Shown here: positions 40,665 through 64,000 of the stretch, in pieces | How the letters are laid out: the number at the start of each line of letters is the position of its first letter | How positions within the stretch are numbered: position 1 is the first letter of the stretch | Assembly: GCA_964016885.1 (NCBI GenBank) | Contig: OZ024741.1 | Location: forward strand, 131,254,001-131,318,000 | Source: Eledone cirrhosa | Lineage: Eukaryota | Direction of reading: 5' to 3' | Length of the DNA stretch: 64,000 nt | Notes under the pieces: model-generated | What the model saw: only the letters and a program-made list of their open reading frames with translations | Told to the model about the DNA's origin: nothing | The model's database searches: none | Program-made: the position numbers and the translations under genes

Positions 40665-40706
<42 letters not shown>

Positions 40707-40816: not shown

Positions 40817-40924
<108 letters not shown>

Positions 40925-41455: not shown

Positions 41456-41504
41456 ATTTTTAATATAATGAACTTTTTCTTTCTTTTTATTCATTGTTTT
41501 TATT

Positions 41505-41505
41505 A

Positions 41506-41593
<88 letters not shown>

Positions 41594-41626
41594 CTATATA
41601 TATATAGTTATATATATATATATAGT

Positions 41627-41658
<32 letters not shown>

Positions 41659-41749
41659 TATATATATATATAGTTATATATATATATATATAGTTATATA
41701 TATATATATATAGTTATATATATATATATAGTTATATATATATATATAG

Positions 41750-41790
<41 letters not shown>
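41505..41790. repeat. (TA)n with periodic GT interruptions
   Basis: tatatatagttatata units. Confidence 0.9.
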
Positions 41791-42014
41791 AAAGAATAGA
41801 GGTGTAACACACAAGTTATTATATATTGGTAAACGGAATAGAAAATGCTGACAAATTGTTCACAGTTGAAAAATGGTTTAATTAGGAATAAAAGAGTATT
41901 AGTGATTGTATGGGTTAGTATTCAGTTGTGGTTTTAAGTTTTTAAGTTTTTACCGGTTGCGCATTTCTAAATGTTCGTTTTCTTTTATTTTTGTTTTGAC
42001 ATTTTTTTTTTAAA

Positions 42015-42725
42015 GACTGACGGAGCCCATCGCTCTCCAAGTCTGAACACATCAGAGAAGGATAGAAAGTGAGAGAGAGGAAGTGAGTACGAGATATAGA
42101 GAAAGAGTCGATCCCAGTGCTAGACTGATACTTTTTTTATCGATTCGATTTCGAAAGAATGAAAGGTAAATTTGATTTCGGTGGGATTTGAACTCAGAGA
42201 GCAGTGAGCCGGAATGAATACTGCAAAGCATTTTATCCGACGTTCTAACGACTCTACCAATTCACCGTCCTAACACCAATAATGATTTCTGATAAAGTAA
42301 CAAAGCTAGTTATTTTGAGTAGAGGAGGATATGAAAATAACATTAACATCAGTGCATGACTGATCCTTTTTTTCCACCTCGGAATGATGAAAGACAAAGT
42401 TGTTTTCTGAGGAATTTGAATTCAGAATTCATAGAGCCATAACTAAAAGCCTCAATTCATTGTGTCCAACATTCTAACAATTCTACCAAACCATCTTTTA
42501 CCACCATCTTAACAACAACAGTAGTAATTGTTTCCTCTTTTGGCACAAGAACCGCATCTTGAAAGGTAAGAGGAGCGTCGATTTTAACAACCCCAGCGCG
42601 TTACTGGTACTTTATTTTACCGACATCGTAAAGATGAAAGGCAAAGCTAACCTCATCGGAATTTGAACGCAGAACATAAAGTGTCGTAACTATATGTCGC
42701 AAGTATAGTTCTACCGATTCTGCCA
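42015..42725 (-). mobile_element. Three tandem SINE copies
   Basis: gatttgaactcaga, gaatttgaattcaga and gaatttgaacgcaga B-box complements with the shared body. Confidence 0.78.
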
Positions 42726-43054
42726 AACACCAACTACAATACGTTGGAACCTCAGTCGCTTCTGAATATGGGTTTCCTCTTTGTTTGAATAACGGAATAG
42801 TCTACTCCTATAATAAGCTGGCAAGTGGCTGAGATTTCCACAGACACGTGCACTCTTAACGTAGTTCTCAATGTGATTCGGTGTGAGTGACAACGTTGGC
42901 GCTTTGAAATACAATAAAACTCATTTTTGCCAGCCGATTGAAGTGGAGTAACATGAATAAAGTACTCAACGCACTGCCGAGTATCGAACACACGTCTTTA
43001 CGATCATGAGCCGAGCACTCTAACTATAAGCTATGTGCCTTCACATTTGTACTA

Positions 43055-43217
43055 TTGTTGTTGTTGTTGTTGTTGTCTTCGTCATTGTTAGTATTTTTGT
43101 GGTCTTCGTAATTGGCGTCGATGTCGTCATCATCATCTCTGTTGTTTCTGTTGCATTTGTTGTTGTTGACATCGTTTTTGTTGTTGCTGTTGCTGCTGTT
43201 GTTGTTGTTGTTATTGC

Positions 43218-43263
<46 letters not shown>

Positions 43264-43300
43264 GCTGCTGATGTTGCGGTTGTTGTTGCTGCTGCTGTTG
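43055..43300. repeat. (GTT)n-rich tract, the (AAC)n tail side of the adjacent element
   Basis: Direct reading. Confidence 0.85.
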
Positions 43301-43850
43301 TTTTTTTTTTTTACCGCAGGCGCCTGAGGATTACCCTCAGTAGCGCTAGACTGAGGTGTGGGAGACGCACGAGTTCATCCATGCTGGAGCCGAGTTGGTT
43401 GGTTTGGTGTTTGTGCGGATCTTTCCCTGGCATAGGTGGCATCGGAGATTTTGATCACTTGCTGGCGATAGATGCGTTGGCTCGACGGCTGTTCCCCCGG
43501 CAGAGACTGCAGACGAAGCTTTGATGACTCTTCTGTTGAACTCGAGTGAAGCCGCTACATTTCCTGTGGAAATCACGTCTGCAGGTCGTGCAGATGAATG
43601 GTGCGAAGTCACGGCGAATCGTCTTGGCACACCCTGGGCAGATGGGTCCGGGGTTGATCTCGATGTCGCCCGACAGGAGGAGGATTAACTGGAGTTACAG
43701 GGCGGGAGTTGCACCCCTGGTTGTAGAAAAACGGTGCGTCTCCCACGACGCAGTCTGGGTAGGATATGGTGCGAGTTCGTAAGTCGCCTGGAGGTGACCC
43801 CAACACAGCACAGCTCTGTAAGGTCTCGGTCCATATAAACGTGCTACCGC
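43301..43850 (-). mobile_element. Internally deleted Ingi-like non-LTR element with 2A-like peptide and PHD finger
   Basis: Minus frame 43694-43500 reads LQLILLLSGDIEINPGP then ICPGCAKTIRRDFAPFICTTCRRDFHRKCSGFTRVQQKSHQSFVCSLC. The 3' end reads LGSSMDELVRLPHLSLALLRVILRRLR-TAA, followed by poly(A) and (AAC)n. The 5' boundary is approximate. Confidence 0.75.
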
Positions 43851-43899
43851 CACTGTCACCACAAGAGTTATCGTCAATACCGCCGCCTCTGCTTCTGTT

Positions 43900-46800
43900 G
43901 TTGTCGTTGTCGTCGTTGTTGATGCTGTTGTTGTTGTTGCAGCTGCTGGTACTGTCGTTGTCATTATTGTTGTTGTTGCTGCCGTCGTTGTTATTGTTGT
44001 TATTGCCGTTGTTGTTGTCGTTGTCATTATTGTTGTTGTTGTTGCTGTCGTCATTGTTATTTTTGTTATTGCCGTTGTTGTCGTTGTCATTATTGTTGTT
44101 GTTGTTGCTGTCGTCGTTGTTATTGTTGTTGTTGTTGCTGTCGTCATTGTTATTGTTGTTATTGCCGTTGTTGTCGTTGTCATTATTGTTGCCGTTGTTG
44201 CTGTCGTCGTTGTTATTGTTGTTATTGCCGTTGTTGTCGTTGTCATTATTGTTGTTGTTGTTGCTGTCGTCATTGTTATTGTTGTTATTGCCGTTGTTGT
44301 CGTTGTCATTATTGTTGCCGTTGTTGCTGTCGTCGTTGTTATTGTTGTTATTGCCGTTGTTGTCGTTGTCATTATTGTTGTTGTTGTTGCTGTCGTCGTT
44401 GTTATTGTTGTTGTTGTTGCTGTCGTCGTTGTTATTGTTGTTATTGCCGTTGTTGTCGTTGTCATTATTGTTGTTGTTGTTGCTGTCGTCATTGTTATTG
44501 TTGTTATTGCCGTTGTTGTCGTTGTCATTATTGTTGTTGTTGCTGTCCTCATTGTTATTGTTGTTATTGCCGTTGTTGTCGTTGTCATTATTGTTGTTGT
44601 TGTTGCTGTCGTCATTGTTATTGTTGTTATTGCCGTTGTTGTCGTTGTCATTATTGTTGTTGTTGTTGTTGCTGTCGTCATTGTTATTGTTGTTATTGCC
44701 GTTGTTGTCGTTGTCATTATTGTTGTTGTTGCTGTCGTCGTTGTTATTGTTGTTATTGCCGTTGTTGTCGTTGTTATTATTGTTGTTGTTGCTTTCGTCG
44801 TTGTTATTGTTGTTATTGCCGCTGTTGTCGTTGTCATTATTGTTGTTGTTGCTTTCGTCGTTGTTATTGTTGTTACTGCCGTTGTTGTCGTTGTCATTAT
44901 TGTTGTTGTTGCTGTCGTCATTGTTATTGTTGTTATTGCCGTTGTTGTCGTTGTCATTATTGTTGTTGTTGCTGTCGTCATTGTTATTGTTGTTATTGCC
45001 GTTGTTGTCGTTGTCATTATTGTTGTCGTTGTTGCTGTCGTCATTGTTATTGTTGTTATTGCCGTTGTTGTCATTGTCATTATTGTTGTTGTTGCTTTCG
45101 TCGTTGTTATTGTTGTTACTGCCGTTGTTGTCGTTGTCATTATTGTTGTTGTTGCTGTCGTCATTGTTATTGTTGTTATTGCCGTTGTTGTCGTTGTCAT
45201 TATTGTTGTTGTTGCTGTCGTCATTGTTATCGTTGTTATTGCCGTTGTTGTCGTTGTCATTATTGTTGTTGTTGCTGTCGTCATTGTTATTGTTGTTATT
45301 GCCGTTGTTGTCGTTGTCATTATTGTTGTCGTTGTTGCTGTCGTCATTGTTATTGTTGTTATTGCCGTTGTTGTCGTTGTCATTATTGTTGTTGTTGCTG
45401 TCGTCGTTGTTATTGTTGTTATTGCCGTTGTTGTCGTTGTCATTATTGTTGTTGTTGTTGCTGTCGTCATTGTTATTGTTGTTATTGCCGTTGTTGTCGT
45501 TGTCATTATTGTTGTTGTTGCTGTCCTCATTGTTATTGTTGTTATTGCCGTTGTTGTCGTTGTCATTATTGTTGTTGTTGTTGCTGTCGTCGTTGTTATT
45601 GTTGTTATTGCCGTTGTTGTCGTTGTCATTATTGTTGTTGTTGCTGTCGTCGTTGTTATTGTTGTTATTGCCGTTGTTGTCGTTGTCATTATTGTTGTTG
45701 TTGTTGCTGTCGTCATTGTTATTCTTGTTATTGCCATTGTTGTCGTTGTCATTATTGTTGTTGTTGCTGTCATCATTGTTATTGTTGTTATTGCCGTTGT
45801 TGTCGTTGTCATTATTGTTGTTGTTGCTGTCCTCATTGTTATTGTTGTTATTGCCGTTGTTGTCGTTGTCATTATTGTTGTTGTTGTTGCTGTCGTCGTT
45901 GTTATTGTTGTTATTGCCGTTGTTGTCGTTGTCATTATTGTTGTTGTTGCTGTCGTCGTTGTTATTGTTGTTATTGCCGTTGTTGTCGTTGTTATTGTTG
46001 TTGTTGTTGTTGCTGTCGTCGTTGTTATTGTTGTTATTGCCGTTGTTGTCGTTGTCATTATTGTTGTTATTGCTGTCGTCGTTGTTATTGTTATTATTGC
46101 CGTTGTTGTCGTTGTCATTATTGTTGTTGTTGCTTTCGTCGTTGTTATTGTTGTTATTGCCGTTGTTGTCGTTGTCATTATTGTTGTCGTTGTTGCTGTC
46201 GTCATTGTTATTGTTGTTATTGCCGTTGTTGTCGTTGTCATTATTGTTGTCGTTGTTGCTGTCGTCATTGTTATTGTTGTTATTGCCGTTGTTGTCATTG
46301 TCATTATTGTTGTTGTTGCTTTCGTCGTTGTTATTGTTGTTACTGCCGTTGTTGTCGTTGTCATTATTGTTGTTGTTGCTGTCGTCATTGTTATTGTTGT
46401 TATTGCCGTTGTTGTCATTGTCATTATTGTTGTTGTTGCTTTCGTCGTTGTTATTGTTGTTATTGCCGTTGTTGTCATTGTCATTATTGTTGTTGTTGCT
46501 GTCGTCATTGTTATTGTTGTTATTGCCGTTGTTGTCGTTGTCATTATTGTTGTTGTTGCTGTCGTCATTGTTATTGTTGTTATTGCCGTTGTTGTCATTG
46601 TCATTATTGTTGTTGTTGCTGTCGTCATTGTTATTGTTGTTATTGCCGTTGTTGTCGTTGTCATTATTGTTGTTGTTGCTGTCGTCATTGTTATTGTTGT
46701 TATTGCCGTTGTTGTCGTTGTCATTATTGTTGTTGTTGCTGTCGTCATTGTTATTGTTGTTATTGCCGTTGTTGTCGTTGTCATTATTGTTGTTGTTGCT

Positions 46801-49800
46801 GTCGTCATTGTTATTGTTGTTATTGCCGTTGTTGTCGTTGTCATTATTGTTGTTGTTGCTGTCGTCATTGTTATTGTTGTTATTGCCGTTGTTGTCGTTG
46901 TCATTATTGTTGTTGTTGCTGTCGTCATTGTTATTGTTGTTATTGCCGTTGTTGTCGTTGTCATTATTGTTGTCGTTGTTGCTGTCGTCATTGTTATTGT
47001 TGTTATTGCCGTTGTTGTCGTTGTCATTATTGTTGTTGTTGCTTTCGTCGTTGTTATTGTTGTTACTGCCGTTGTTGTCGTTGTCATTATTGTTGTTGTT
47101 GCTGTCGTCATTGTTATTGTTGTTATTGCCGTTGTTGTCGTTGTCATTATTGTTGTTGTTGCTGTCGTCATTGTTATCGTTGTTATTGCCGTTGTTGTCG
47201 TTGTCATTATTGTTGTTGTTGCTGTCGTCATTGTTATTGTTGTTATTGCCGTTGTTGTCGTTGTCATTATTGTTGTCGTTGTTGCTGTCGTCATTGTTAT
47301 TGTTGTTATTGCCGTTGTTGTCATTGTCATTATTGTTGTTGTTGCTTTCGTCGTTGTTATTGTTGTTACTGCCGTTGTTGTCGTTGTCATTATTGTTGTT
47401 GTTGCTGTCGTCATTGTTATTGTTGTTATTGCCGTTGTTGTCGTTGTCATTATTGTTGTTGTTGCTGTCGTCATTGTTATCGTTGTTATTGCCGTTGTTG
47501 TCGTTGTCATTATTGTTGTTGTTGCTGTCGTCATTGTTATTGTTGTTATTGCCGTTGTTGTCGTTGTCATTATTGTTGTCGTTGTTGCTGTCGTCATTGT
47601 TATTGTTGTTATTGCCGTTGTTGTCGTTGTCATTATTGTTGTTGTTGCTGTCGTCGTTGTTATTGTTGTTATTGCCGTTGTTGTCGTTGTCATTATTGTT
47701 GTTGTTGTTGCTGTCGTCATTGTTATTGTTGTTATTGCCGTTGTTGTCGTTGTCATTATTGTTGTTGTTGCTGTCGTCGTTGTTATTGTTGTTATTGCCG
47801 TTGTTGTCGTTGTTATTATTGTTGTTGTTGCTGTCGTCGTTGTTATTGTTGTTATTGCCGTTGTTGTCGTTGTCATTAGTGTTGTTGTTGCTGTCGTCGT
47901 TGTTATTGTTGTTATTGCCGTTGTTTTCGTTGTCATTATTGTTGTTGTCGTTGTCATTATTGTTGTTGTTGTTATTGCCGTTGTTGTCGTTGTCATTATT
48001 GTTGTTGTTGTTATTGCCGTTGTTGTCGTTGTCATTATTGTTGTTGTTGCTGTCGTCGTTGTTATTGTTGTTATTGCCGTTGTTGTCGTTGTCATTATTG
48101 TTGTTGTTGCTTTCGTCGTTGTTATTGTTGTTATTGCCGTTGTTGTCGTTGTCATTATTGTTGTTGTTGCTGTCGTCATTGTTATTGTTGTTATTGCCGT
48201 TGTTGTCGTTGTCATTATTGTTGTCGTTGTTGCTGTCGTCATTGTTATTGTTGTTATTGCCGTTGTTGTCGTTGTCATTATTGTTGTCGTTGTTGCTGTC
48301 GTCGTTGTTATTGTTGTTATTGCCGTTGTTGTCGTTGTCATTATTGTTGTTGTTGCTGTCGTCATTGTTATTGTAGTTATTGCCGTTGTTGTCGTTGTTA
48401 TTGTTGTTGTTGTTGCTGCCGTCGTTGTTATTGTTGTTATTGCCGTTGTTGTCGTTGTCATTATTGTTGTTGTTGTTATTGCCGTTGTTGTCGTTGTCAT
48501 TATTGTTGTTGTTGCTGTCGTCGTTGTTATTGTTGTTATTGCCGTTGTTGTCGTTGTCATTATTGTTGTTGTTGTTATTGCCGTTGTTGTCGTTGTTATT
48601 GTTGTTGTTGTTGCTGCCGTCGTTGTTATTGTTGTTATTGCCGTTGTTGTCGTTGTCATTATTGTTGTTGTTGTTATTGCCGTTGTTGTCGTTGTCATTA
48701 TTGTTGTTGTTGCTGTCGTCGTTGTTATTGTTGTTATTGCCGTTGTTGTCGTTGTCATTATTGTTGTTGTTGCTTTCGTCGTTGTTATTGTTGTTATTGC
48801 CGTTGTTGTCGTTGTCATTATTGTTGTTGTTGCTGTCGTCATTGTTATTGTTGTTATTGCCGTTGTTGTCGTTGTCATTATTGTTGTCGTTGTTGCTGTC
48901 GTCATTGTTATTGTTGTTATTGCCGTTGTTGTCGTTGTCATTATTGTTGTCGTTGTTGCTGTCGTCATTGTTATTGTTGTTATTGCCGTTGTTGTCGTTG
49001 TCATTATTGTTGTCGTTGTTGCTGTCGTCGTTGTTATTGTTGTTATTGCCGTTGTTGTCGTTGTCATTATTGTTGTTGTTGCTGTCGTCATTGTTATTGT
49101 AGTTATTGCCGTTGTTGTCGTTGTTATTGTTGTTGTTGTTGCTGCCGTCGTTGTTATTGTTGTTATTGCCGTTGTTGTCGTTGTCATTATTGTTGTTGTT
49201 GCTGTCGTCGTTGTTATTGTTGTTATTGCCGTTGTTGTCGTTGTCATTATTGTTGTTGTTGCTGTCGTCGTTGTTATTGTTGTTATTGCCGTTGTTGTCG
49301 TTGTCATTAGTGTTGTTGTTGCTGTCGTCATTGTTATTGTTGTTATTGCCGTTGTTGTCGTTGTCATTATTGTTGTTGTTGTTGTCGTCATTGTTATTGT
49401 AGTTATTGCCGTTGTTGTCGTTGTTATTGCTGTTGTTGTTGCTGTCGTCATTGTTATTGTTGTTATTGCCGTTGTCGTCGTTGTCATTATTGTTGTTGTT
49501 GCTGTCGTCGTTGTTATTGTTGTTATTGCCGTTGTTGTCGTTGTCATTATTGTTGTTGTTGCTGTCGTCGTTGTTATTGTTGTTATTGCCGTTGTTGTCG
49601 TTGTTATTGTTGTTGTTGTTGCTGCCGTCGTTGTTATTGTTGTTATTGCCGTTGTTGTCGTTGTCATTATTGTTGTCGTTGTTACTGTCGTCGTTGTTAT
49701 TGTTGTTATTGCCGTTGTTGTCGTTGTCGTTATTGTTGTTGTTGCTGTCGTCGTTGTTATTGTTGTTATTGCCGTTGTTGTCGTTGTCATTATTGTTGTT

Positions 49801-52800
49801 GTTGCTGTCGTCATTGTTATTGTTGTTATTGACGTTGTTGTCGTTGTCATTATTGTTGTTGTTGCTTTCGTCGTTGTTATTGTTGTTACTGCCGTTGTTG
49901 TCGTTGTCATTATTGTTGTTGTTGCTGTCGTCATTGTTATTGTTGTTATTGCCGTTGTTGTCGTTGTCATTATTGTTGTTGTTGTTGCTGTCGTCGTTGT
50001 TATTGTTGTTGTTGTTGCTGTCGTCGTTGTTATTGTTGTTATTGCCGTTGTTGTCGTTTCATTATTGTTGTTGTTGTTGCTGTCGTCGTTGTTATTGTTG
50101 TTATTGCCGTTGTTGTTGTCATTATTGTTGTTGTTGCTGTCGTCGTTGTTATTGTTGTTATTGCCGTTGTTGTCGTTGTCATTATTGTTGTTGTTGTTGC
50201 TGTCGTCGTTGTTATTGTTGTTATTGCCGTTGTTGTCGTTGTCATTATTGTTGTTATTGCTGTCGTCGTTGTTATTGTTGTTATTGCCGTTGTTGTCGTT
50301 GTCATTATTGTTGTTGTTGCTGTCCTCATTGTTATTGTTGTTATTGCCGTTGTTGTCGTTGTCATTATTGTTGTTGTTGCTGTCGTCATTGTTATTGTTG
50401 TTATTGCCGTTGTTGTCGTTGTCATTATTGTTGTTGTTACTGTCGTCGTTGTTATTGTTGTTATTGCCGTTGTTGTCGTTGTCATTATTGTTGTTGTTAC
50501 TGTCGTCATTGTTATTGTTGTTATTGCCGTTGTTGTCGTTGTCATTATTGTTGTTGCTGCTGTCGTCGTTGTTATTGTTGTTATTGCCGTTGTTGTCGTT
50601 GTGATTATTGTTGTTGTTGTTGCTGTCGTCATTGTTATTGTTGTTATTGCCGTTGTTGTCGTTGTCATTATTGTTGTTGTTACTGTCGTCGTTGTTATTG
50701 TTGTTATTGCCGTTGTTGTCGTTGTCATTATTGATGTTGTTGTTGCTGTCGTCATTGTTATTGTTGTTATTGCCGTTGTTGTCGTTGTCATTATTGTTGT
50801 TGTTGCTGTCGTCGTTGTTATTGCCGTTGTTGTCATTGTCATTATTGTTGTTGTTGCTGTCGTCGTTGTTATTGTTGTTATTGCCGTTGTTGTCGTTGTC
50901 ATTATTGTTGTTGTTGCTGTCGTCGTTGTTATTGTTGTTATTGCCGTTGTTGTCATTGTCATTATTGTTATTGTTGCTTTCGTCGTTGTTATTGTTGTTA
51001 TTACCGTTGTTGTCGTTGTCATTAGTGTTGTTGTTGCTGTCGTCATTGTTATTGTTGTTATTGCCGTTGTTGTCGTTGTCATTATTGTTGTTGTTGCTTT
51101 CGTCGTTGTTATTGTTGTTACTGCCGTTGTTGTCGTTGTCATTATTGTTGTTGTTGCTGTCGTCATTGTTATTGTTGTTATTGCCGTTGTTGTCATTGTC
51201 ATTATTGTTGTTGTTGCTTTCGTCGTTGTTATTGTTGTTACTGGCGTTGTTGTCGTTGTCATTATTGTTGTTGTTGCTGTCGTCATTGTTATTGTTGTTA
51301 TTGCCGTTGTTGTCGTTGTCATTATTGTTGTCGTTGTTGCTGTCGTCGTTGTTATTGTTGTTATTGCCGTTGTTGTCGTTGTCATTATTGTTGTTGTTGT
51401 TGTTGCTGTCGTCATTGTTATTGTTGTTATTGCCGTTGTTGTCGTTGTCATTAGTGTTGTTGTTGCTGTCGTCGTTGTTATTGTTGTTATTGCCGTTGTT
51501 GTCGTTGTCATTATTGTTGTTGTTGCTGTCGTCGTTGTTATTGTTGTTATTACCGTTGTTGTCGTTGTCATTAGTGTTGTTGTTGCTGTCGTCATTGTTA
51601 TTGTTGTTATTGCCGTTGTTGTCGTTGTCATTATTGTTGTCGTTGTTGCTGTCGTCGTTGTTATTGTTGTTATTGCCGTTGTTGTCGTTGTCATTATTGT
51701 TGTTGTTGCTGTCGTCGTTGTTATTGTTGTTATTGCCGTTGTTGTCGTTGTTATTATTGTTGTTGTTGCTGTCGTCATTGTTATTGTTGTTATTGCCGTT
51801 GTTGTCGTTGTCATTATTGTTGTTGTTGTTGCTGTCGTCATTGTTATTGTAGTTATTGCCGTTGTTGTCGTTGTTATTGTTGTTGTTGTTGCTGCCGTCG
51901 TTGTTATTGTTGTTATTGCCGTTGTTGTCGTTGTCATTATTGTTGTTGTTGCTGTCGTCGTTGTTATTGTTGTTATTGCCGTTGTTGTCGTTGTCATTAT
52001 TGTTGTTGTTGCTTTAGTCGTTGTTATTGTTGTTACTGCCGTTGTTGTCGTTGTCATTAGTGTTGTTGTTGCTGTCGTCATTGTTATTGTTGTTATTGCC
52101 GTTGTTGTCGTTGTCATTATTGTTGTTGTTGCTTTCGTCGTTGTTATTGTTGTTGCTGCGGTTGTTGTCGTTGTCATTATTGTTGTTGTTGCTGTCGTCA
52201 TTGTTATTGTTGTTATTGCCGTTGTTGTCATTGTCATTATTGTTGTTGTTGCTTTCGTCGTTGTTATTGTTGTTACTGCCGTTGTTGTCGTTGTCATTAT
52301 TGTTGTTGTTGCTGTCGTCATTGTTATTGTTGTTATTGCCGTTGTTGTCGTTGTCATTATTGTTGTCGTTGTTGCTGTCGTCGTTGTTATTGTTGTTATT
52401 GCCGTTGTTGTCGTAGTCATTATTGTTGTTGTTGCTGTCGTCATTGTTATTGTAGTTATTGCCGTTGTTGTCGTTGTTATTGCTGTTGTTGTTGCTGTCG
52501 TCGTTGTTATTGATGTTATTGCCGTTGTTGTCGTTGTCATTATTGTTGTAGTTGCTGTCGTCGTTGTTATTGATGTTATTGCCGTTGTTGTCGTTGTCAT
52601 TATTGTTGTTGTTGTTGTCCTCATTGTTATTGTTGTTATTGCCGTTGTTGTCGTTGTCGTTATTGTTGATGTTGCTGTCATCATTGTTATTGTTGTTATT
52701 GCCGTTGTTGTCGTTGTCATTATTGTTGTTGTTGTTGTTGCTGTCGTCATTGTTATTGTTGTTATTGCCGTTGTTGTAGTTGTCATTATTGTTGTTGTTG

Positions 52801-55800
52801 TTGTCGTCATTGTTATCGTTGTTATTGCCGTTGTTGTCGGTGTCATTATTGTTGTTGTTGTTGTCCTCATTGTTATTGTTGTTATTGCCGTTGTTGTCGT
52901 TGTCATTTTTGTTGCTGTTGCTGTCGTCATTGTTATTGTTGTTATTGCCGTTGTTGTCGTTGTCGTTATTGTTGATGTTGCTGTCGTCGTTGTTATTGTT
53001 GTTATTGCCGTTGTTGTCGTTGTCATTATTGTTGTTGTTGCTGTCGTCATTGTTATTGTTGTTATTGCCGTTGTTGTCGTTGTCATTATTGTTGTTGTTG
53101 CTGACCGCATTCTTATTGTTGTTATTGCCGTTGTTGTCGGTGTCATTATTGTTGTTGTTGTTGTCCTCATTGTTATTGTTGTTATTGCCGTTGTTGTCGT
53201 TGTCATTTTTGTTGCTGTTGCTGTCGTCATTGTTATTGTTGTTATTGCCGTTGTTGTCGTTGTCATTATTGTTGTTGTTGATTTCGTCGTTGTTATTGTT
53301 GTTATTGCCGCTGTTGTCGTTGTCGTTATTGTTGATGTTGCTGTCGTCGTTGTTATTGTTGTTATTACCGTTGTTGTCGTTGTCATTATTGTTGTTGTTG
53401 CTGTCGTCGTTGTTATTGTTGTTATTACCGTTGTTGTCGTTGTCATTATTGTTGTTGTTGCTGTCGTCGTTGTTATTGTTGTTATTACCGTTGTTGTCGT
53501 TGTCATTATTGTTGTTGTTGCTGTCGTCATTGTTATTGTTGTTATTGCCGTTGTTGTCGTTGTTGCTTTCGTCGTTGTTATTGTTGTTACTGCCGTTGTT
53601 GTCGTTGTCATTATTGTTGTTGTTGCTGTCGTCATTGTTATTGTTGTTATTGCCGTTGTTGTCGTTGTTGCTTTCGTCGTTGTTATTGTTGTTACTGCCG
53701 TTGTTGTCGTTGTCATTATTGTTGTTGTTGCTGTCGTCATTGTTATTGTTGTTATTGCCGTTGTTGTCGTTGTTGCTTTCGTCGTTGTTATTGTTGTTAC
53801 TGCCGTTGTTGTCGTTGTCATTATTGTTGTTGTTGCTGTCGTCATTGTTATTATTGTTATTGCCGTTGTTGTCGTTGTTGCTTTCGTCGTTGTTATTGTT
53901 GTTACTGCCGTTGTTGTCGTTGTCATTATTGTTGTTGTTGCTGTCGTCATTGTTATTGTTGTTATTGCCGTTGTTGTCATTGTCATTATTGTTGTTGTTG
54001 CTTTCGTCGTTGTTATTGTTGTTACTGGCGTTGTTGTCGTTGTAATTATTGTTGTTGTTGCTGTCGTCATTGTTATTGTTGTTATTGCCGTTGTTGTCGT
54101 TGTCATTATTGTTGTCGTTGTTGCTGTCGTCGTTGTTATTGTTGTTATTGCCGTTGTTGTCGTTGTCATTATTGTTGTTGTTGCTGTCGTCATTGTTATT
54201 GTAGTTATTGCCGTTGTTGTCGTTGTTATTGTTGTTGTTGTTGCTGCCGTCGTTGTTATTGTTGTTATGGCCGTTGTTGTCGTTGTCATTATTGTTGTTG
54301 TTGCTGTCGTCGTTGTTATTGTTGTTATTGCCGTTGTTGTCGTTGTCATTGTTGTTGTTGTTGCTGTCGTCATTGTTATTTTTGTTATTGCCGTTGTTGT
54401 CGTTGTCATTATTGTTGTTGTTGCTGTCGTCGTTGTTATTGTTGTTATTGCCGTTGTTGTCGTTGTCATTAGTGTTGTTTTTGCTGTCGTCGTTGTTATT
54501 GTTGTTATTGCCGTTGTTGTCATTGTCATTATTGTTGTTGTTGCTTTCGTCGTTGTTATTGTTGTTATTGCCGTTGTTGTCGTTGTCATTATTGTTGTTG
54601 TTGTTGCTGTCGTCATTGTTATTGTTGTTATTGCCGTTGTTGTCGTTGTCATTATTGTTGTTGTTGCTGTCGTCGTTGTTATTGTTGTTATTACCGTTGT
54701 TGTCGTTGTCATTAGTGTTGTTGTTGCTGTCGTCATTGTTATTGTTGTTATTGCCGTTGTTGTCATTGTCATTATTGTTGTTGTTGCTTTCGTCGTTGTT
54801 ATTGTTGTTACTGCCGTTGTTGTCGTTGTCATTATTGTTGTTGTTGCTGTCATCATTGTTATTGTTGTTATTGCCGTTGTTGTCGTTGTCATTATTGTTG
54901 TTGTTGCTGTCGTCGTTGTTATTGTTGTTATTGCCGTTGTTGTCATTGTCATTATTGTTGTTATTGCTTTCGTCGTTGTTATTGTTGTTACTGCCGTTGT
55001 TGTCGTTGTCATTATTGTTGTTGTTGCTGTCGTCGTTGTTATTGTTGTTATTGCCGTTGTTGTCGTTGTCATTATTGTTGTTGTTGCTTTCGTCGTTGTT
55101 ATTGTTGTTACTGCCGTTGTTGTCGTTGTCATTATTGTTGTTGTTGCTGTCGTCATTGTTATTGTTGTTATTGCCGTTGTTGTCGTTGTCATTATTGTTG
55201 TCGTTGTTGTTGTCGTCGTTGTTATTGTTGTTATTGCCGTTGTTGTCGTTGTCATTATTGTTGTTGTTGCTGTCGTCATTGTTATTGTAGTTATTGCCGT
55301 TGATGTCGTTGTTATTGTTGTTGTTGTTGCTGTCGTCGTTGTTATTGTTGTTATTGCCGTTGTTGTCGTTGTCATTATTGTTGTTATTGCTGTCGTCGTT
55401 GTTATTGTTATTATTGCCGTTGTTGTCGTTGTCATTATTGTTGTTGTTGTCCTCATTGTTATTGTTGTTATTGCCGTTGTTGTCGTTGTCGTTATTGTTG
55501 ATGTTGCTGTCATCATTGTTATTGTTGTTATTGCCGTTGTTGTCGTTGTCATTATTGTTGTTGTTGTTGTTGTTGTCGTCATTGTTATCGTTGTTATTGC
55601 CGTTGTTGTCATTGTTATTATTGTTGTTGTTGTTGTCCTCATTGTTATTGTTGTTATTGCCGTTGTTGTCGTTGTCATTATTGTTGTTGTTGCTGTCGTC
55701 ATTGTTATTGTTGTTATTGCCGTTGTTGTCATTGTTATTATTGTTGTTGTTGTTGTCGTCATTGTTATTGTTGTTATTGCCGTTGTTGTCGTTGTCATTA

Positions 55801-58800
55801 TTGTTGTTGTTGCTGTCATCATTGTTATTGTTGTTATTGCCGTTGTTGTCATTGTTATTATTGTTGTTGTTGTTGTCGTCATTGTTATTGTTGTTATTGC
55901 CGTTGTTGTCATTGTTATTATTGTTGTTGTTGTTGTCCTCATTGTTATTGTTGTTATTGCCGTTGTTGTCGTTGTCATTATTGTTGTTGTTGCTGTCGTC
56001 GTTGTTATTGTTGTTATTGCCGTTGTTGTCGTTGTCATTATTGTTGTTGTTGCTGTCGTCATTGTTATTGTTGTTATTGCCGTTGTTGTCGTTGTCATTA
56101 TTGTTATTGTTGTTGTCGTCATTGCTATTGTTGTTATTGCCGTTGTTGTCGTTGTCGTTATTGTTGATGTTGCTGTCGTCGTCGTTATTGTTGTTATTGC
56201 CGTTGTTGTCGTTGTCATTATTGTTGTTGTTGCTGTCGTCATTGTTATAGGTTGTTATTGCCGTTGTTGTCGTTGTCGTTATTGTTGTTGTTGCTGTCGT
56301 CATTGTTATTGTTGTTATTGCCGTTGTTGTCGTTGTCGTTATTGTTGATGTTGCTGTCGTCGTTGTTATTGTTGTTATTGCCGTTGTTGTCGTTGTCATT
56401 ATTGTTGTTGTTGCTGTCGTCATTGTTATTGTTGTTATTGCCGTTGTTGACGTTGTCATTATTGTTATTGTTGCTGTCGTCGTTGTTATTGTTGTTATTG
56501 CCGTTGGTGTCGTTGTCATTATTGTTGTTGTTGCTGTCGTCGTTGTTATTGTTGTTGTTGCTGTCGTCGTTGTTATTGTTGTTATTGCCGTTGGTGTCGT
56601 TGTCATTATTGTTGTTGTTGCTGTCGTCATTGTTATTGTTGTTATTGCCGTTGTTGTCGTTGTCATTATTGTTGTTGTTGCTGTCGTCCTTGTTATTGTT
56701 GTTATTACCGTTGTTATTGCCGTTGTTGTCGTTGTCATTATTGTTGTTGTTGCTGTCGTCGTTGTTATTGTGGTTATTGCCGTTGGTGTCGTTGTCATTA
56801 TTGTTGTTGTTGCTGTCGTCATTGTTATTGTAGTTATTGCCGTTGATGTCGTTGTTATTGTTGTTGTTGTTGCTGTCGTCGTTGTTATTGTTGTTATTGC
56901 CGTTGTTGTCGTTGTCATTATTGTTGTTATTGCTGTCGTCGTTGTTATTGTTGTTATTGCCGTTGTTGTAGTTGTCATTATTGTTGTTGTTGTTGTCGTC
57001 ATTGTTATCGTTGTTATTGCCGTTGTTGTCGGTGTCATTATTGTTGTTGTTGTTGTCCTCATTGTTATTGTTGTTATTGCCGTTGTTGTCGTTGTCATTT
57101 TTGTTGCTGTTGCTGTCGTCATTGTTATTGTTGTTATTGCCGTTGTTGTCGTTGTCGTTATTGTTGATGTTGCTGTCGTCGTTGTTATTGTTGTTATTGC
57201 CGTTGTTGTCGTTGTCATTATTGTTGTTGTTGCTGACCGCATTCTTATTGTTGTTATTGCCGTTGTTGTCGGTGTCATTATTGTTGTTGTTGTTGTCCTC
57301 ATTGTTATTGTTGTTATTGCCGTTGTTGTCGTTGTCATTTTTGTTGCTGTTGCTGTCGTCATTGTTATTGTTGTTATTGCCGTTGTTGTCGTTGTCATTA
57401 TTGTTGTTGTTGATTTCGTCGTTGTTATTGTTGTTATTGCCGCTGTTGTCGTTGTCGTTATTGTTGATGTTGCTGTCGTCGTTGTTATTGTTGTTATTAC
57501 CGTTGTTGTCGTTGTCATTATTGTTGTTGTTGCTGTCGTCGTTGTTATTGTTGTTATTGCCGTTATTGTTGTTATTACCGTTGTTGTCGTTGTCATTATT
57601 GTTGTTGTTGCTGTCGTCGTTGTTATTGTTGTTATTACCGTTGTTGTCGTTGTCATTAGTGTTGTTGTTGCTGTCGTCATTGTTATTATTGTTATTGCCG
57701 TTGTTGTCGTTGTTGCTTTCGTCGTTGTTATTGTTGTTACTGCCGTTGTTGTCGTTGTCATTATTGTTGTTGTTGCTGTCGTCATTGTTATTGTTGTTAT
57801 TGCCGTTGTTGTCGTTGTCATTATTGTTGTTGTTGCTTTCGTCGTTGTTATTGTTGTTACTGGCGTTGTTGTCGTTGTAATTATTGTTGTTGTTGCTGTC
57901 GTCATTGTTATTGTTGTTATTGCCGTTGTTGTCGTTGTCATTATTGTTGTCGTTGTTGCTGTCGTCGTTGTTATTGTTGTTATTGCCGTTGTTGTCGTTG
58001 TCATTATTGTTGTTGTTGCTGTCGTCATTGTTATTGTAGTTATTGCCGTTGTTGTCGTTGTTATTGTTGTTGTTGTTGCTGCCGTCGTTGTTATTGTTGT
58101 TATGGCCGTTGTTGTCGTTGTCATTATTGTTGTTGTTGCTGTCGTCGTTGTTATTGTTGTTATTGCCGTTGTTGTCGTTGTCATTGTTGTTGTTGTTGCT
58201 GTCGTCATTGTTATTTTTGTTATTGCCGTTGTTGTCGTTGTCATTATTGTTGTTGTTGCTGTCGTCGTTGTTATTGTTGTTATTGCCGTTGTTGTCGTTG
58301 TCATTAGTGTTGTTTTTGCTGTCGTCGTTGTTATTGTTGTTATTGCCGTTGTTGTCGTTGTCATTATTGTTGTTGTTGCTGTCGTCGTTGTTATTGTTGT
58401 TATTACCGTTGTTGTCGTTGTCATTATTGTTGTTGTTGTTGCTGTCGTCATTGTTATTGTTGTTATTGCCGTTGTTGTCGTTGTCATTATTGTTGTTGTT
58501 GCTGTCGTCGTTGTTATTGTTGTTATTACCGTTGTTGTCGTTGTCATTAGTGTTGTTGTTGCTGTCGTCATTGTTATTGTTGTTATTGCCGTTGTTGTCA
58601 TTGTCATTATTGTTGTTGTTGCTTTCGTCGTTGTTATTGTTGTTACTGCCGTTGTTGTCGTTGTCATTATTGTTGTTGTTGCTGTCGTCGTTGTTATTGT
58701 TGTTATTGCCGTTGTTGTCATTGTCATTATTGTTGTTATTGCTTTCGTCGTTGTTATTGTTGTTACTGCCGTTGTTGTCGTTGTCATTATTGTTGTTGTT

Positions 58801-61800
58801 GCTGTCGTCATTGTTATTGTTGTTATTGCCGTTGTTGTCGTTGTCATTATTGTTGTTGTTGCTTTCGTCGTTGTTATTGTTGTTACTGCCGTTGTTGTCG
58901 TTGTCATTATTGTTGTTGTTGCTGTCGTCGTTGTTATTGTTGTTATTGCCGTTGTTGTCGTTGTCATTATTGTTGTTGTTGCTTTCGTCGTTGTTATTGT
59001 TGTTACTGCCGTTGTTGTCGTTGTCATTATTGTTGTTGTTGCTGTCGTCATTGTTATTGTTGTTATTGCCGTTGTTGTCGTTGTCATTATTGTTGTCGTT
59101 GTTGTTGTCGTCGTTGTTATTGTTGTTATTGCCGTTGTTGTCGTTGTCATTATTGTTGTTGTTGCTGTCGTCATTGTTATTGTAGTTATTGCCGTTGATG
59201 TCGTTGTTATTGTTGTTGTTGTTGCTGTCGTCGTTGTTATTGTTGTTATTGCCGTTGTTGTCGTTGTCATTATTGTTGTTATTGCTGTCGTCGTTGTTAT
59301 TGTTATTATTGCCGTTGTTGTCGTTGTCATTATTGTTGTTGTTGTTGTCCTCATTGTTATTGTTGTTATTGCCGTTGTTGTCGTTGTCATTATTGTTGTT
59401 GTTGTTGTTGTTGTCGTCATTGTTATCGTTGTTATTGCCGTTGTTGTCATTGTTATTATTGTTGTTGTTGTTGTCCTCATTGTTATTGTTGTTATTGCCG
59501 TTGTTGTCGTTGTCATTATTGTTGTTGTTGCTGTCGTCATTGTTATTGTTGTTATTGCCGTTGTTGTCATTGTTATTATTGTTGTTGTTGTTGTCGTCAT
59601 TGTTATTGTTGTTATTGCCGTTGTTGTCGTTGTCATTATTGTTGTTGTTGCTGTCATCATTGTTATTGTTGTTATTGCCGTTGTTGTCATTGTTATTATT
59701 GTTGTTGTTGTTGTCGTCATTGTTATTGTTGTTATTGCCGTTGTTGTCATTGTTATTATTGTTGTTGTTGTTGTCCTCATTGTTATTGTTGTTATTGCCG
59801 TTGTTGTCGTTGTCATTATTGTTGTTGTTGCTGTCGTCGTTGTTATTGTTGTTATTGCCGTTGTTGTCGTTGTCATTATTGTTGTTGTTGCTGTCGTCAT
59901 TGTTATTGTTGTTATTGCCGTTGTTGTCGTTGTCATTATTGTTATTGTTGTTGTCGTCATTGCTATTGTTGTTATTGCCGTTGTTGTCGTTGTCGTTATT
60001 GTTGATGTTGCTGTCGTCGTCGTTATTGTTGTTATTGCCGTTGTTGTCGTTGTCATTATTGTTGTTGTTGCTGTCGTCATTGTTATAGGTTGTTATTGCC
60101 GTTGTTGTCGTTGTCGTTATTGTTGTTGTTGCTGTCGTCATTGTTATTGTTGTTATTGCCGTTGTTGTCGTTGTCGTTATTGTTGATGTTGCTGTCGTCG
60201 TTGTTATTGTTGTTATTGCCGTTGTTGTCGTTGTCATTATTGTTGTTGTTGCTGTCGTCATTGTTATTGTTGTTATTGCCGTTGTTGACGTTGTCATTAT
60301 TGTTATTGTTGCTGTCGTCGTTGTTATTGTTGTTATTGCCGTTGGTGTCGTTGTCATTATTGTTGTTGTTGCTGTCGTCGTTGTTATTGTTGTTGTTGCT
60401 GTCGTCGTTGTTATTGTTGTTATTGCCGTTGTTGTCATTGTCATTATTGTTGTTGTTGCTGTCGTCATTGTTATTGTTGTTATTGCCGTTGGTGTCGTTG
60501 TCATTATTGTTGTTGTTGCTGTCGTCATTGTTATTGTTGTTATTGCCGTTGTTGTCGTTGTCATTATTGTTGTTGTTGCTGTCGTCCTTGTTATTGTTGT
60601 TATTACCGTTGTTATTGCCGTTGTTGTCGTTGTCATTATTGTTGTTGTTGCTGTCGTCGTTGTTATTGTGGTTATTGCCGTTGGTGTCGTTGTCATTATT
60701 GTCGTTGTTGCTGTCATCGTTGTTATTGTTGTTATTGCCGTTGGTGTCGTTGTCATTATTGTTCTTGTTGCTGTCGTCGTTGTTATTGTTGTTATTGCCG
60801 TTGTTGTCATTGTCATTATTGTTGTTGTTGCTGTCGTCATTGTTATTGTTGTTATTGCCGTTGGTGTCGTTGTCATTATTGTTGTTGTTGCTGTCGTCAT
60901 TGTTATTGTTGTTATTGCCGTTGTTGTCGTTGTCATTATTGTTGTTGTTGCTGTCGTCGTTGTTATTGTTGTTATTGCCGTTGTTGTCGTTGTCATTATT
61001 GTTGTTGTTGCTGTCGTCATTGTTATTGTTGTTATTGCCGTTGTTGTCGTTGTCATTATTGTTGTTGTTGCTGTCATCGTTGTTATTGTTGTTATTGCCG
61101 TTGGTGGCGTTGTCATTATTGTTGTTGTTGCTGTCGTCATTGTTATTGTTGTTATTGCTGTTGTTGTCGTTGTCATTATTGTTGTTGTTGCTGTCGTTTT
61201 TGTTATTGTTGTTATTGGCGTTGGTGTCGTTGTCATTATTGTTGTTGTTGCTGTCGTTTTTGTTATTGTTGTTATTGCCGTTGTTGTCGTTGTTATTATT
61301 GTTGTTGTTGCTGTCATCATTGTTATTGTTGTTATTGCCGTTGTTGTCGTTGTTATTATTGTTGTTGTTGCTGTCATCGTTGTTATTGTTGTTATTGCCG
61401 TTGGTGTCGTTGTCATTATTGTTGTTGTTGCTGTCATCGTTGTTATTGTTGTTATTGCCGTTGTTGTCGTTGTCATTATTGTTGTTGTTGCTGTCATCGT
61501 TGTTATTGTTGTTATTGCCGTTGGTGTCGTTGTCATTATTGTTGTTGTTGCTGTCGTCATTGTTATTGTTGTTATTGCCGTTGTTGTCGTTGTTATTATT
61601 GTTGTTGTTGCTGTCATCATTGTTATTGTTGTTATTGCCGTTGTTGTCGTTGTCATTATTGTTGTTGTTGCTGTCATCGTTGTTATTGTTGTTATTGCCG
61701 TTGGTGTCGTTGTCATTATTGTTGTTGTTGCTGTCGTCATTGTTATTGTTGTTATTGCCGTTGTTGTCGTTGTTATTATTGTTGTTGTTGCTGTCATCAT

Positions 61801-64000
61801 TGTTATTGTTGTTATTGCCGTTGGTGTCGTTGTCATTATTGTTGTTGTTGCTGTCATCGTTGTTATTGTTGTTATTCTCGTTGGTGTCGTTGTCATTATT
61901 GTTGTCGTTGTTGCTGTCGTCGTTGTTATTGTTGTTATTGCCGTTGTTGTCGTTGTTATTGTTGTTGTTGTTGCTGTCGTCGTTGTTATTTATGTTATTG
62001 TCGTTGTTGTCGTTGTCATTATTGTTGTTGTTGCTGTCGTCGTTGTTATTGTTATTATTGCCGTTGTTGTCGTTGTCATTATTGTTGTTGTTGTTGTCTT
62101 CATTGTTATTGTTGTTATTGCCGTTGTTGTCGTTGTCGTTATTGTTGATGTTGCTGTCATCATTGTTATTGTTGTTATTGCCGTTGGTGTCGTTGTCATT
62201 ATTGTTGTTGTTGCTGTCATCGTTGTTATTGTTGTTATTCTCGTTGGTGTCGTTGTCATTATTGTTGTCGTTGTTGCTGTCGTCGTTGTTATTGTTGTTA
62301 TTGCCGTTGTTGTCGTTGTCATTATTGTTGTTGTTGCTGTCGTCATTGTTATTGTAGTTATTGCCGTTGTTGTCGTTGTTATTGTTGTTGTTGTTGCTGT
62401 CGTCGTTGTTATTGTTGTTATTGCCGTTGTTGTCGTTGTCATTATTGTTGTTGTTGCTGTCGTCGTTGTTATTCTTATTATTGCCGTTGTTGTCGTTGTC
62501 ATTATTGTTGTTGTTGCTGTCGTCGTTGTTATTGTTGTTATTGCCGTTGTTGTCGTTGTCGTTATTGTTGATGTTGCTGTCATCATTGTTATTGTTGTTA
62601 TTGCCGTTGGTGTCGTTGTCATTATTGTTGTTGTTGCTGTCGTCGTTGTTATTGTTGTTATTGCCGTTGTTGTCATTGTCATTATTGTTGTTGTTGCTGT
62701 CGTCATTGTTATTGTTGTTATTGCCGTTGGTGTCGTTGTCATTATTGTTGTTGTTGCTGTCGTCATTGTTATTGTTGTTATTGCCGTTGTTGTCGTTGTC
62801 ATTATTGTTGTTGTTGCTGTCGTCGTTGTTATTGTTGTTATTGCCGTTGTTGTCGTTGTCATTATTGTTGTTGTTGCTGTCGTCGTTGTTATTGTGGTTA
62901 TTGCCGTTGGTGTCGTTGTCATTATTGTTGTTGTTGCTGTCATCGTTGTTATTGTTGTTATTGCCGTTGGTGTCGTTGTCATTATTGTTGTTGTTGCTGT
63001 CGTCGTTGTTATTGTTGTTATTGCCGTTGTTGTCATTGTCATTATTGTTGTTGTTGCTGTCCTCATTGTTATTGTTGTTATTGCCGTTGGTGTCGTTGTC
63101 ATTATTGTTGTTGTTGCTGTCGTCATTGTTATTGTTGTTATTGCCGTTGTTGTCGTTGTCATTATTGTTGTTGTTGCTGTCGTCGTTGTTATTGTTGTTA
63201 TTGCCGTTGTTGTGGTTGTCATTATTGTTGTTGTTGCTGTCGTCGTTGTTATTGTTGTTATTGCCGTTGTTGTCGTTGTCATTATTGTTGTTATTGCCGT
63301 TGTTGTCGTTGTTATTGTTGTAATTGCCGTTGTTGTCGTTGTCATTATTGTTGTTATTGTTGCTGTCGTCGTTGTTATTGTTGTTATTGCCGTTGTTGTT
63401 GTTGTCATTATTGTTGTTGTTGCTGTCGTTTTTGTTATTGTTGTTATTGCCGTTGTTGTCGTTGTCATTATTGTTGCTGTTGTTGCTGTCGTCGTTGTAA
63501 TTGTTGTTATTGCCGTTGTTGTCGTTGTCATTATTGTTGTTGTTGCTGTCGTCATTGTTATTGCTGTTATTGCCGTTGTTGTCGTTGTCATTATTGTTGT
63601 TGTTGCTGTCGTTTTTGTTATTGTTGTTATTGCCGTTGCTGTCGTTGTCATTATTGTTGTTGTTGCTGTCGTCATTGTTATTGTTGTTATTGCCGTTGTT
63701 GTCATATCATTATTGTTGTTGTTGCTGTCGTCGTTGTTATTGTTGTTATTGCCGTTGTTGTCGTTGTCATTATTGTCCCTGTTGCTGTCGTCATTTTTAT
63801 TGTTGTTATTGCCGTTGTTGTTGTTGTTGTTGTCATTATTGTTGTTGTTACTGTCGTCATTGTTATTGTTGTCATTGCCGTTGTTGTCGTTGTCATTATT
63901 GTTGTTGTTGCTGTCTTCGTTGTTATTGTTGTTATTGCCGTTGTTGTCGTTGTCATTATTGTTGTTGTTGCTGTCTTCGTTTTTATTGTTGTTATTGCCA
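43900..64000. repeat. Large 60-bp satellite derived from (AAC/GTT)n, more than 20 kb, runs off the window
   Basis: Unit gttgttgttgctgtcgtcattgttattgttgttattgccgttgttgtcgttgtcattatt repeated roughly 330 times with variants. Confidence 0.97.

What the first reader, a model, noticed from the sequence alone, without database searches (positions are those of the whole stretch)
43500..43694. 2A/StopGo ribosome-skipping peptide fused to a PHD finger, missed by the ORF track
Seen: the minus strand encodes LQLILLLSGDIEINPG-P, matching the D(V/I)ExNPGP consensus with the usual upstream hydrophobic run. It is followed at once by a complete C4-H-C3 PHD finger, and a second finger start (LRCHLCQGKIR) follows in another frame. 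Established: 2A-like motifs occur at the N-terminus of some APE-type non-LTR elements (L1Tc/Ingi and some CR1, L2 and RTEX), often with PHD fingers. Inference: this is the N-terminus of an Ingi-like ORF.
Basis: partly seen in the sequence, partly recalled or inferred. Interest (0 to 1): 0.75.

Follow-up and report, generated by a model that had tools for sequence, protein, structure and literature searches.

The report
Gutted Ingi retrotransposon with 2A peptide
This is a broken, shortened copy of a jumping gene whose full-length relatives start their one protein with a virus-like peptide predicted to make ribosomes skip a bond, a trick already known from such elements; the less usual point is that two related families here carry the same front end taken from an unrelated jumping gene, likely because their self-cutting RNA failed to trim it off.

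Summary
The 2A motif and the C4-H-C3 PHD finger are real (about 4e-5 expected by chance). They lie in a 586-bp, internally deleted copy (43311-43896, minus) of an Ingi-like LINE. A 4.8-kb parent elsewhere in the genome reads 2A, three PHD fingers, APE, RT, RNase H, Zn finger, and an intact database relative has the same order in one 1475-aa frame. The window copy is dead: a stop precedes the 2A, a frameshift follows PHD1, and about 4.1 kb are gone. Ten independent short copies exist; two junctions recur on several chromosomes, so short RNAs were likely mobilised in trans, like RIME/NARTc. None of 13 copies starts at the predicted cleavage site. 2A, ribozyme and bipartite derivatives are all known for the Ingi clade; skipping and cleavage are untested, and clade membership rests on architecture and by-eye motifs. 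Mostly ordinary, with one testable twist.

The parts
43311..43896 (-). Whole short internally deleted copy of Ingi-like family A
   Evidence: blastn chain to leader and parent, 585-586 bp; 4.4% substitutions from the family majority
43847..43896 (-). Remnant of the captured 5' leader (from ORF1 region of a Tx1-like LINE), with a 13-nt deletion at its 3' end
   Evidence: alignment of 12 copies; leader homology to older LINE
43771..43847 (-). HDV-like ribozyme fold, decayed in this copy (P3, L3 and P2 each carry a breaking change)
   Evidence: own descriptor matches 3 of 12 family A copies, not this one; 0 of 4500 shuffles; alignment; no Rfam HDV-type hit
43733..43762 (-). 5' arm of a long-range 5'-3' helix
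   Evidence: duplex -41.6 kcal/mol, 0 of 100 shuffles as good; present in MFE and centroid
43695..43697 (-). Stop codon just upstream of the 2A Leu run; the duplicate locus L002 has Tyr here
43644..43694 (-). 2A/StopGo-like peptide; predicted skip between Gly (43649-43647) and Pro (43646-43644)
43500..43640 (-). PHD finger 1, C4-H-C3, basic (9 K/R, 2 D/E)
43494..43498 (-). 5-G run causing the frameshift between PHD1 and PHD2
43400..43447 (-). First part of PHD finger 2, cut by the deletion
43396..43403 (-). Deletion junction (about 4.1 kb of linker, PHD3, APE, RT, RNase H, Zn finger missing)
   Evidence: parent positions ~535 joined to ~4692
43311..43399 (-). 3' terminal piece: last codons of the ORF and its stop; 3' recognition end
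   Evidence: 36 loci match its 41-nt end at up to 2 mismatches; same C-terminal motif in P0003
43345..43371 (-). 3' arm of the long-range helix
43291..43312 (-). A-tail (12 A) and candidate 12-bp target duplication in a CAA/CAG repeat
   Evidence: duplication not significant (9 of 28 cross pairs as good)
43953..64000 (.). Context: AAC-rich minisatellite of about 60-63 bp unit abutting the 5' end
   Evidence: TRF on 42800-47000; same composition to the window end

Best explanation
The 2A-like motif and PHD finger are the front of the single protein of an Ingi-like LINE, preserved in a dead 586-bp copy that joins the element's first ~500 and last ~90 bases and was likely copied as a short RNA by the enzyme of full-length relatives. 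In the parent, the Leu-rich 2A is predicted to make the ribosome release the short N-terminal peptide so that the enzyme starts at Pro directly before PHD1, and likely also lowers its output. Short RNAs keep the 3' end and both arms of a 5'-3' helix, which likely brings the ends together and favours microhomology jumps across the middle. The HDV-like fold would normally cut the RNA free at the 5' end; in this family it likely failed (first pair U-U in the best register), so copies carry a leader from the Tx1-like LINE in which the source copy sat. Shown: sequence, domain order, shared junctions, shared leader, complementarity. Inferred: skipping, down-regulation, trans-mobilisation, ribozyme identity and failure.
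For: Parent L021 with APE (E 4.9e-13), RT (2.1e-13), RNase H pieces (3e-4). Intact relative P0003: 2A, 3 PHD, APE, RT, RNase H, Zn finger in one frame. 27 of 121 homologous proteins carry an NPGP motif near the N-terminus, each 0-9 residues before a CxxC. 11 of the 15 family A loci with the 2A/PHD are short bipartite copies, 10 independent; junction J1 is shared by 4 loci on 4 contigs and J2 by 3 loci on 3 contigs, with different 5' ends, flanks and A-tails. One variant base is shared by the window and all four J1 copies and absent from the other seven scored (L011 read by eye). 17 of 29 3' ends are followed by CAA/CAG repeats against 3 of 348 background windows. 5'-3' duplex is the best in the whole parent (-46 against -34.6 next). 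All 13 family A loci that reach the fold extend upstream of it. All 28 hits of the leader-end pattern are fused to family A (8) or B (20); A and B leaders differ at 3 of 226 majority columns while bodies are 64-72% identical. In family B, 2 of 17 loci reaching the fold start at its first base, which is also the leader junction.
Against: The window's own junction is unique apart from its segmental duplicate, and the copy tree is star-like with no supported junction clades. Target duplications are barely above cross-pair control (mean 10.9 against 8.8). Rfam gave no HDV-type hit; the descriptor was written after seeing the sequence, matches only 3 of 12 A copies, and fits family B only with a 29-nt L3 (6 of 18). 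No descriptor match upstream of the 6 2A-like motifs found in 80 metagenome loci, only one of them a close relative. The register of P1 (6 bp with C-G first, or 7 bp with U-U first) is not settled. Whether leader AUGs are in frame with the 2A is inconclusive (family B 4 of 9; the two A copies scored differ by -1 and +1). No tree with named clade references.
Confidence: 0.8

Rival explanations
1. A full-length or long copy inserted here and later lost its middle by microhomology-mediated DNA deletion; no short RNA was ever mobilised.
For: The window's junction is found only here and in its duplicate; all junctions show 3-4 nt microhomology; long copies also carry private internal deletions (L033, L146, L163); no supported clustering by junction.
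Against: Identical junctions at 4 and at 3 unlinked loci with different flanks and 5' truncation points; a base shared by the window and all J1 copies; family B has its own recurrent short junction.
Confidence: 0.12
2. The element belongs to another I-group lineage (such as the unnamed octopus I clade) or to a CR1/Crack-type 2A-PHD lineage, not to Ingi.
For: Odon 2013 lists PHD between 2A and APE for Crack, CR1 and sea-urchin elements, not for Ingi. Martelossi 2023 reports 16 unclassified I-superfamily elements in O. sinensis. My tree has no named references.
Against: RNase H and one ORF; by eye the RT shares its motif-3 region and later motifs with I1_AC, labelled Ingi, in the RTclass1 file; in my tree families A and B nest among APE-RT-RNase H proteins next to a Vingi-like RT and away from the RTE root.
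Confidence: 0.1
3. The upstream fold is not a ribozyme; the leader is simply the family's own acquired 5' UTR/promoter, swapped between families by template switching.
For: No family A copy starts at the fold; no Rfam hit; family B fold is non-canonical; 5' UTR chimeras are known in Ingi-3_AC (PMC5786205).
Against: All five HDV helices and the J4/2 C-x-A occur in order, 0 of 4500 shuffles; P1, P2 and P4 differ in sequence between A and B yet pair in both; two B copies and the B leader junction start at the first P1 base.
Confidence: 0.2
4. The 2A-PHD is a working host-like gene translated from the long open frame of the adjacent minisatellite.
For: The duplicate locus has an open frame of 4282 codons running into the 2A-PHD; in the window a 2772-codon Thr-rich frame ends at the stop before the 2A.
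Against: That frame of an AAC/AAT/GAC repeat has almost no way to hold stops; the window copy has a stop and a frameshift; divergence from the family majority is like that of other dead copies (4.4% within 3.5-7.5%).
Confidence: 0.03

Closest known systems
Ingi-clade LINEs with 2A: L1Tc, ingi, Ingi-1_AC of Aplysia (Odon et al. 2013, PMC3708506; parts 1-3 of 6 and supplement passages read)
   Same: Single ORF, N-terminal GD(V/I)ExNPGP, APE, RT, RNase H; Ingi-1_AC 2A is reported >97% active
   Different: Three PHD fingers between 2A and APE (that paper lists PHD for Crack, CR1 and urchin elements, not Ingi); captured Tx1-like leader
Bipartite non-autonomous LINEs RIME, NARTc, Vingi-1_EE derivatives (Kojima 2018, PMC5786205, passages) and R2 SIDEs (PMC3414825, passages)
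   Same: 5' end joined to 3' end by internal deletion, A-tail, variable 5' truncation, dispersed copies
   Different: Keeps coding remnants (2A, PHD1, half of PHD2); several independent junctions in one young family; low copy number
L1TcRz/Pr77 and R2 HDV-like ribozymes (PMC3185411, PMC4035085, PMC3774820; passages)
   Same: P1-P2-P3-L3-P4-J4/2 order upstream of the ORF, single-pair P1.1 possible
   Different: Copies do not begin at the fold; no cleavage shown; family B version has a 29-nt L3
Leu-rich eukaryotic class A 2A peptides (PMC12338488, PMC13405545; passages)
   Same: Canonical core; six Leu at positions -19 to -10 in intact copies, the range reported for peptides that skip and lower protein abundance
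   Different: This sequence was not found in the passages searched (supplements not searched) and is untested

Membership tests
Ingi clade LINE | Single long ORF, no separate ORF1 | tested here: met
   Collinear broken frame in L021, L093, L094, L100; intact in P0003
Ingi clade LINE | APE, RT and RNase H in that order (RNase H separates Ingi from Vingi, PMC13708176 passage) | tested here: met
   Pfam on parent pieces and P0003
Ingi clade LINE | 2A-like peptide near the N-terminus | tested here: met
Ingi clade LINE | RT groups with L1Tc/ingi/I1_AC in a phylogeny | tested here: inconclusive
   No named references in the tree; by-eye likeness to I1_AC only
Ingi clade LINE | A-tail and about 12-bp target duplication (length recalled) | tested here: inconclusive
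   A-tails present; duplications obscured by repeat targets
Bipartite non-autonomous LINE (RIME/NARTc/SIDE type) | 5' and 3' ends of an autonomous partner joined by deletion | tested here: met
Bipartite non-autonomous LINE (RIME/NARTc/SIDE type) | Same junction at unlinked loci (amplified as a unit) | tested here: inconclusive
   Met for J1 (4 loci) and J2 (3 loci); the window's junction is private and tied to J1 by one base
2A/StopGo peptide | Core D(V/I)ExNPG-P with upstream Leu-rich helix | tested here: met
2A/StopGo peptide | Lies in a translated frame with about 20-30 upstream residues | tested here: not met
   Window copy has a stop 9 codons before the Asp; L002, L006, L008 are open there
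2A/StopGo peptide | Ribosomal skipping activity | not testable with these tools
   needs a reporter
HDV-like ribozyme | Nested double pseudoknot P1, P1.1, P2, P3, P4 with J4/2 cytosine | tested here: inconclusive
   Descriptor met in 3 of 12 A copies, not in the window copy; post hoc; no Rfam hit
HDV-like ribozyme | Element 5' end coincides with first base of P1 | tested here: not met
   0 of 13 in family A; 2 of 17 in family B
HDV-like ribozyme | Self-cleavage | not testable with these tools
   needs in vitro assay
PHD finger | C4-H-C3 ligand spacing | tested here: met
   (below Pfam cut-off); P0003 passes the cut-off
CR1/L2/Crack 2A-PHD elements | No RNase H domain (recalled) | tested here: not met
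   RNase H present

The most novel reading that the evidence does not exclude
Two Ingi-like lineages 30-35% apart in DNA were both amplified from source copies sitting in the same captured, 5'-inverted Tx1-like LINE front end. In family A the ribozyme's first base pair is U-U, a natural knock-out of self-cleavage, so the element ran on a borrowed promoter, the 2A cut off whatever leader-encoded peptide preceded the enzyme, and 5'-3' RNA cyclisation repeatedly spawned short non-autonomous derivatives.
Probability: 0.35. Interest if true: 0.55.

Novelty: new variant of a known kind. Interest (0 to 1): 0.3.

Why it matters
The flagged 2A-PHD itself adds a cephalopod member to a pattern described in 2013. 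If the twist holds, the family is a natural test of what the ribozyme and the 2A are for in single-ORF LINEs: it would show that an Ingi-type element can spread without trimming its 5' end, that promoters pass between unrelated LINE clades, and that end-to-end RNA pairing explains why only a few clades make bipartite derivatives. Each step is a simple bench assay.

Tried and rejected
Rfam E-value scan of 12 loci: only microsatellite-driven miRNA hits, no HDV-type family. Splicing as the source of the junctions: no GT..AG at the five junction types (read). Competition of upstream CAG repeats for P1: pseudoknot-free folding gave erratic pairing probabilities, no conclusion. Global folding energy of the window copy is unremarkable (z 0.99). 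Target-duplication test weak because targets are repeats. Copy tree star-like; L011 and L014 dropped out of that alignment, 12 of 14 rows kept. Leader AUG in frame with the 2A: inconclusive, and the family B offsets printed were one base off and were redone. Metagenome scan for an outgroup ribozyme: one close relative with a 2A (L171), no descriptor match. PDB holds only distant R2 and L1 proteins; ESM Atlas gave unnamed RT-RNase H-APE clusters. Sequencing runs: no RNA holder listed; contigs of one other sample hold the family but no piece spans the window's junction, which proves nothing. Leader as a MITE or DNA-transposon carrier: rejected, since it is the front of a LINE with gag-like ORF1 and an APE ORF2. 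Ruminski 2011, Kojima 2011 and Cerrone-Szakal 2008 were not held and are known only through citing papers.

Full report
Observation. The minus strand at 43694-43461 reads a Leu-rich run, SGDIEINPG|P, and a C4-H-C3 finger starting two residues after the predicted skip. It is the only NPGP in the window's six frames; 4e-5 such motifs are expected from base composition. Pfam PHD matches at E 2.7e-4, below its cut-off. A TAA at 43697-43695 precedes the Leu run, a 5-G run shifts the frame after PHD1, and PHD2 is cut at about 43400. The window lies at C2:131.25-131.32 Mb of a 3.0-Gb genome; earlier notes on this genome call it an octopus, which I did not test.

What it is part of. A DNA search of the genome gave 44 matches among 40 scored candidates of 70. 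In L021 the same 5' end continues for 4.8 kb through PHD2, a linker, PHD3, APE, RT, RNase H and a C-terminal Zn finger to the same 3' end and A-tail. The window copy joins parent position ~535 to ~4692. A database protein, P0003 (1475 aa), has this order in one frame and the same C-terminal motif. Of 121 homologous proteins, 27 carry an NPGP motif near the N-terminus, each 0-9 residues before a CxxC; among the 32 with more than 120 residues before a detected APE start, 18 do. So 2A next to PHD is a conserved lineage feature and not a local fusion.

Family census. The 2A-PHD protein search scored 150 of 3807 candidates and gave 53 matches: 15 loci of the window's family A, some 25 of a sister family B at 50-61% identity, and weak unrelated fingers. 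Family B has its own 2A, full-length copies (L093, L094, L100) and recurrent short copies. Thirty-six loci match the 41-nt family A 3' end at up to two mismatches. The 12 copies aligned are 3.5-7.5% from the majority, the window 4.4%, in a star-like tree; I did not date this. The locus is duplicated 603 kb away at 98-99.9% over at least 7 kb (L002/L031), and the duplicate lacks the stop.

Short derivatives. Eleven of the 15 family A loci with the 2A/PHD are 400-1130 bp bipartite copies, ten of them independent. Five junction types occur, all with 5' breaks in PHD2 and 3' breaks in the last 150 bases, with 3-4 nt microhomology and no GT..AG. J1 is shared by L005, L006, L011 and L012 on four contigs and J2 by L009, L013 and L014 on three, each with its own flanks, 5' truncation point and A-tail. 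One base is shared by the window and all J1 copies and absent from the seven others scored (L011 by eye), so the window copy is likely a J1 copy with a further ~38-nt loss. Against this, its junction is private and the tree does not support junction clades. Insertions favour CAA/CAG repeats (17 of 29 3' flanks against 3 of 348 background windows), which makes target duplications hard to prove (own mean 10.9 nt, cross 8.8).

RNA elements. About 100-180 nt upstream of the 2A the family folds on paper into the HDV order P1, P2, P3, 7-nt L3, P4 hairpin, J4/2 with C-x-A. A descriptor I wrote after seeing the sequence matches 3 of 12 copies, 0 of 4500 shuffles and no site in the 4.8-kb parent, whose own P2 is mutated; the window copy fails through changes in P3, L3 and P2. 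Rfam gave no HDV-type hit. Family B has different P1, P2 and P4 sequences that also pair, but needs a 29-nt L3 (6 of 18 copies, 0 of 600 shuffles).

The leader. All 13 family A loci that reach the fold continue upstream of it, three on different chromosomes for about 565 nt. The same leader is fused to family B about 20 nt earlier. All 28 hits of a leader-end pattern belong to A (8) or B (20); none is empty. Majority leaders differ at 3 of 226 columns (4 A and 16 B copies), bodies by about 30-35%. The leader is 69-86% identical to the front of an older two-ORF LINE with a gag-like ORF1 and an APE ORF2 (Tx1-like by recalled features), and its first 300 nt are inverted against that LINE in the geometry of a 5' inversion. 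In family B, 2 of the 17 loci that reach the fold (22 distinct loci examined) begin at the first P1 base, which is also where the leader joins. In family A the HDV-like register puts U opposite U at the first pair. PMC3774820 (passage) cites P1 mismatches, a U-U among them, as the proposed reason for absent cleavage, and PMC3185411 (passage) shows that upstream sequence modulates L1Tc cleavage. Ribozyme failure is therefore my preferred reading, but a 6-bp P1 starting C-G is also possible and my folding test was uninformative. Whether B inserted into the leader of an A copy or acquired it by template switch is open.

Mechanism. Parent RNA is transcribed from or through the captured leader. Translation enters upstream of the 2A; whether at leader AUGs is unresolved. 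The 2A, with six Leu at -19 to -10 in intact copies, is predicted to skip the Gly-Pro bond and, by the trend in PMC13405545 (passages), to lower the amount of downstream protein. The enzyme would start at Pro-PHD1. PHD1 is basic (9 K/R, 2 D/E), so nucleic-acid or chromatin binding is likelier than methyl-lysine reading; this is inference. Short RNAs that keep the 3' end and both helix arms are likely copied in trans. The window copy is a dead product of this.

Comparison with what is known. Odon 2013 (PMC3708506; parts 1-3 of 6 read, supplement file 2 searched, file 1 not searchable) reports active 2As in Ingi, including Aplysia Ingi-1_AC, and PHD between 2A and APE in CR1, Crack and urchin elements. 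Kojima 2018 (PMC5786205, passages) names RTE, Ingi, Vingi and R2 as the only clades with bipartite derivatives, lists Ingi among ribozyme-bearing clades, and notes a chimeric 5' UTR in Ingi-3_AC. Martelossi 2023 (PMC10294476, passages) finds Ingi in molluscs and an unnamed I clade in O. sinensis. By eye the RT most resembles I1_AC among the entries I saw; my tree groups A and B with P0002, P0003 and P0006 (support 0.93) but has no named references. Searches for octopus + ribozyme + HDV-like + retrotransposon gave 0 papers, octopus + Ingi + LINE + cephalopod 2, and ribozyme + transduction + chimera nothing relevant by title; subscription papers and Repbase were not searchable, so absence from print is not shown.

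Verdict. Real, explained, and mostly a new member of known kinds: a dead bipartite derivative of an Ingi-like LINE with a canonical 2A. The three-PHD front, the shared captured leader and the likely silenced ribozyme make it a modest variant. Interest 0.3; the bold reading has probability 0.35 and would deserve 0.55.

Noticed in passing
L042-L061, L075, L083, L093-L106: Sister family B with its own 2A, a fold needing a 29-nt L3 that holds a hairpin, a variable poly-T run, full-length copies and a recurrent short derivative joining PHD2 to the C-terminal Zn finger.
   Followed up: partly
window 15891-18000 (+); L113-L126: Two-ORF LINE front with gag-like ORF1 (CCHC knuckle) and APE start; the window copy is 50-61% identical in protein to the LINE family that donated the leader.
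   Followed up: partly
window 43953-64000: More than 20 kb of AAC-rich minisatellite (unit about 60-63 bp) with frames open for thousands of codons; in the duplicate locus one frame runs into the 2A-PHD.
   Followed up: partly
window 36541-44200 and L031: Segmental duplication 603 kb away at 98-99.9% identity; could also be an uncollapsed haplotype.
   Followed up: no
window 2345-4894 (+): Frameshifted RTE-type LINE (APE, RT), with a second RT fragment at 300-809 (-).
   Followed up: no
L257:1378-3015 (-): 546-codon open RT resembling Vingi-type entries by eye; used as tree neighbour.
   Followed up: partly
L171, about 250-170 nt upstream of the 2A at 542: Metagenome relative with an HDV-like arrangement by eye (7-bp P1, P3, P4 hairpin, J4/2 like HDV) but atypical L3 and weak P2; missed by my descriptor.
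   Followed up: no
L007, L010, L037, L259, L266, L267: Several copies show 5' inversions; in L007 the already inverted leader segment is inverted back.
   Followed up: partly
L110, L112: Distant PHD hits lie in other retroelements (one with an RLE-type RT by eye), not in Ingi-like ones.
   Followed up: no
P0089: Homologue with two NPGP motifs (residues 28 and 247).
   Followed up: no
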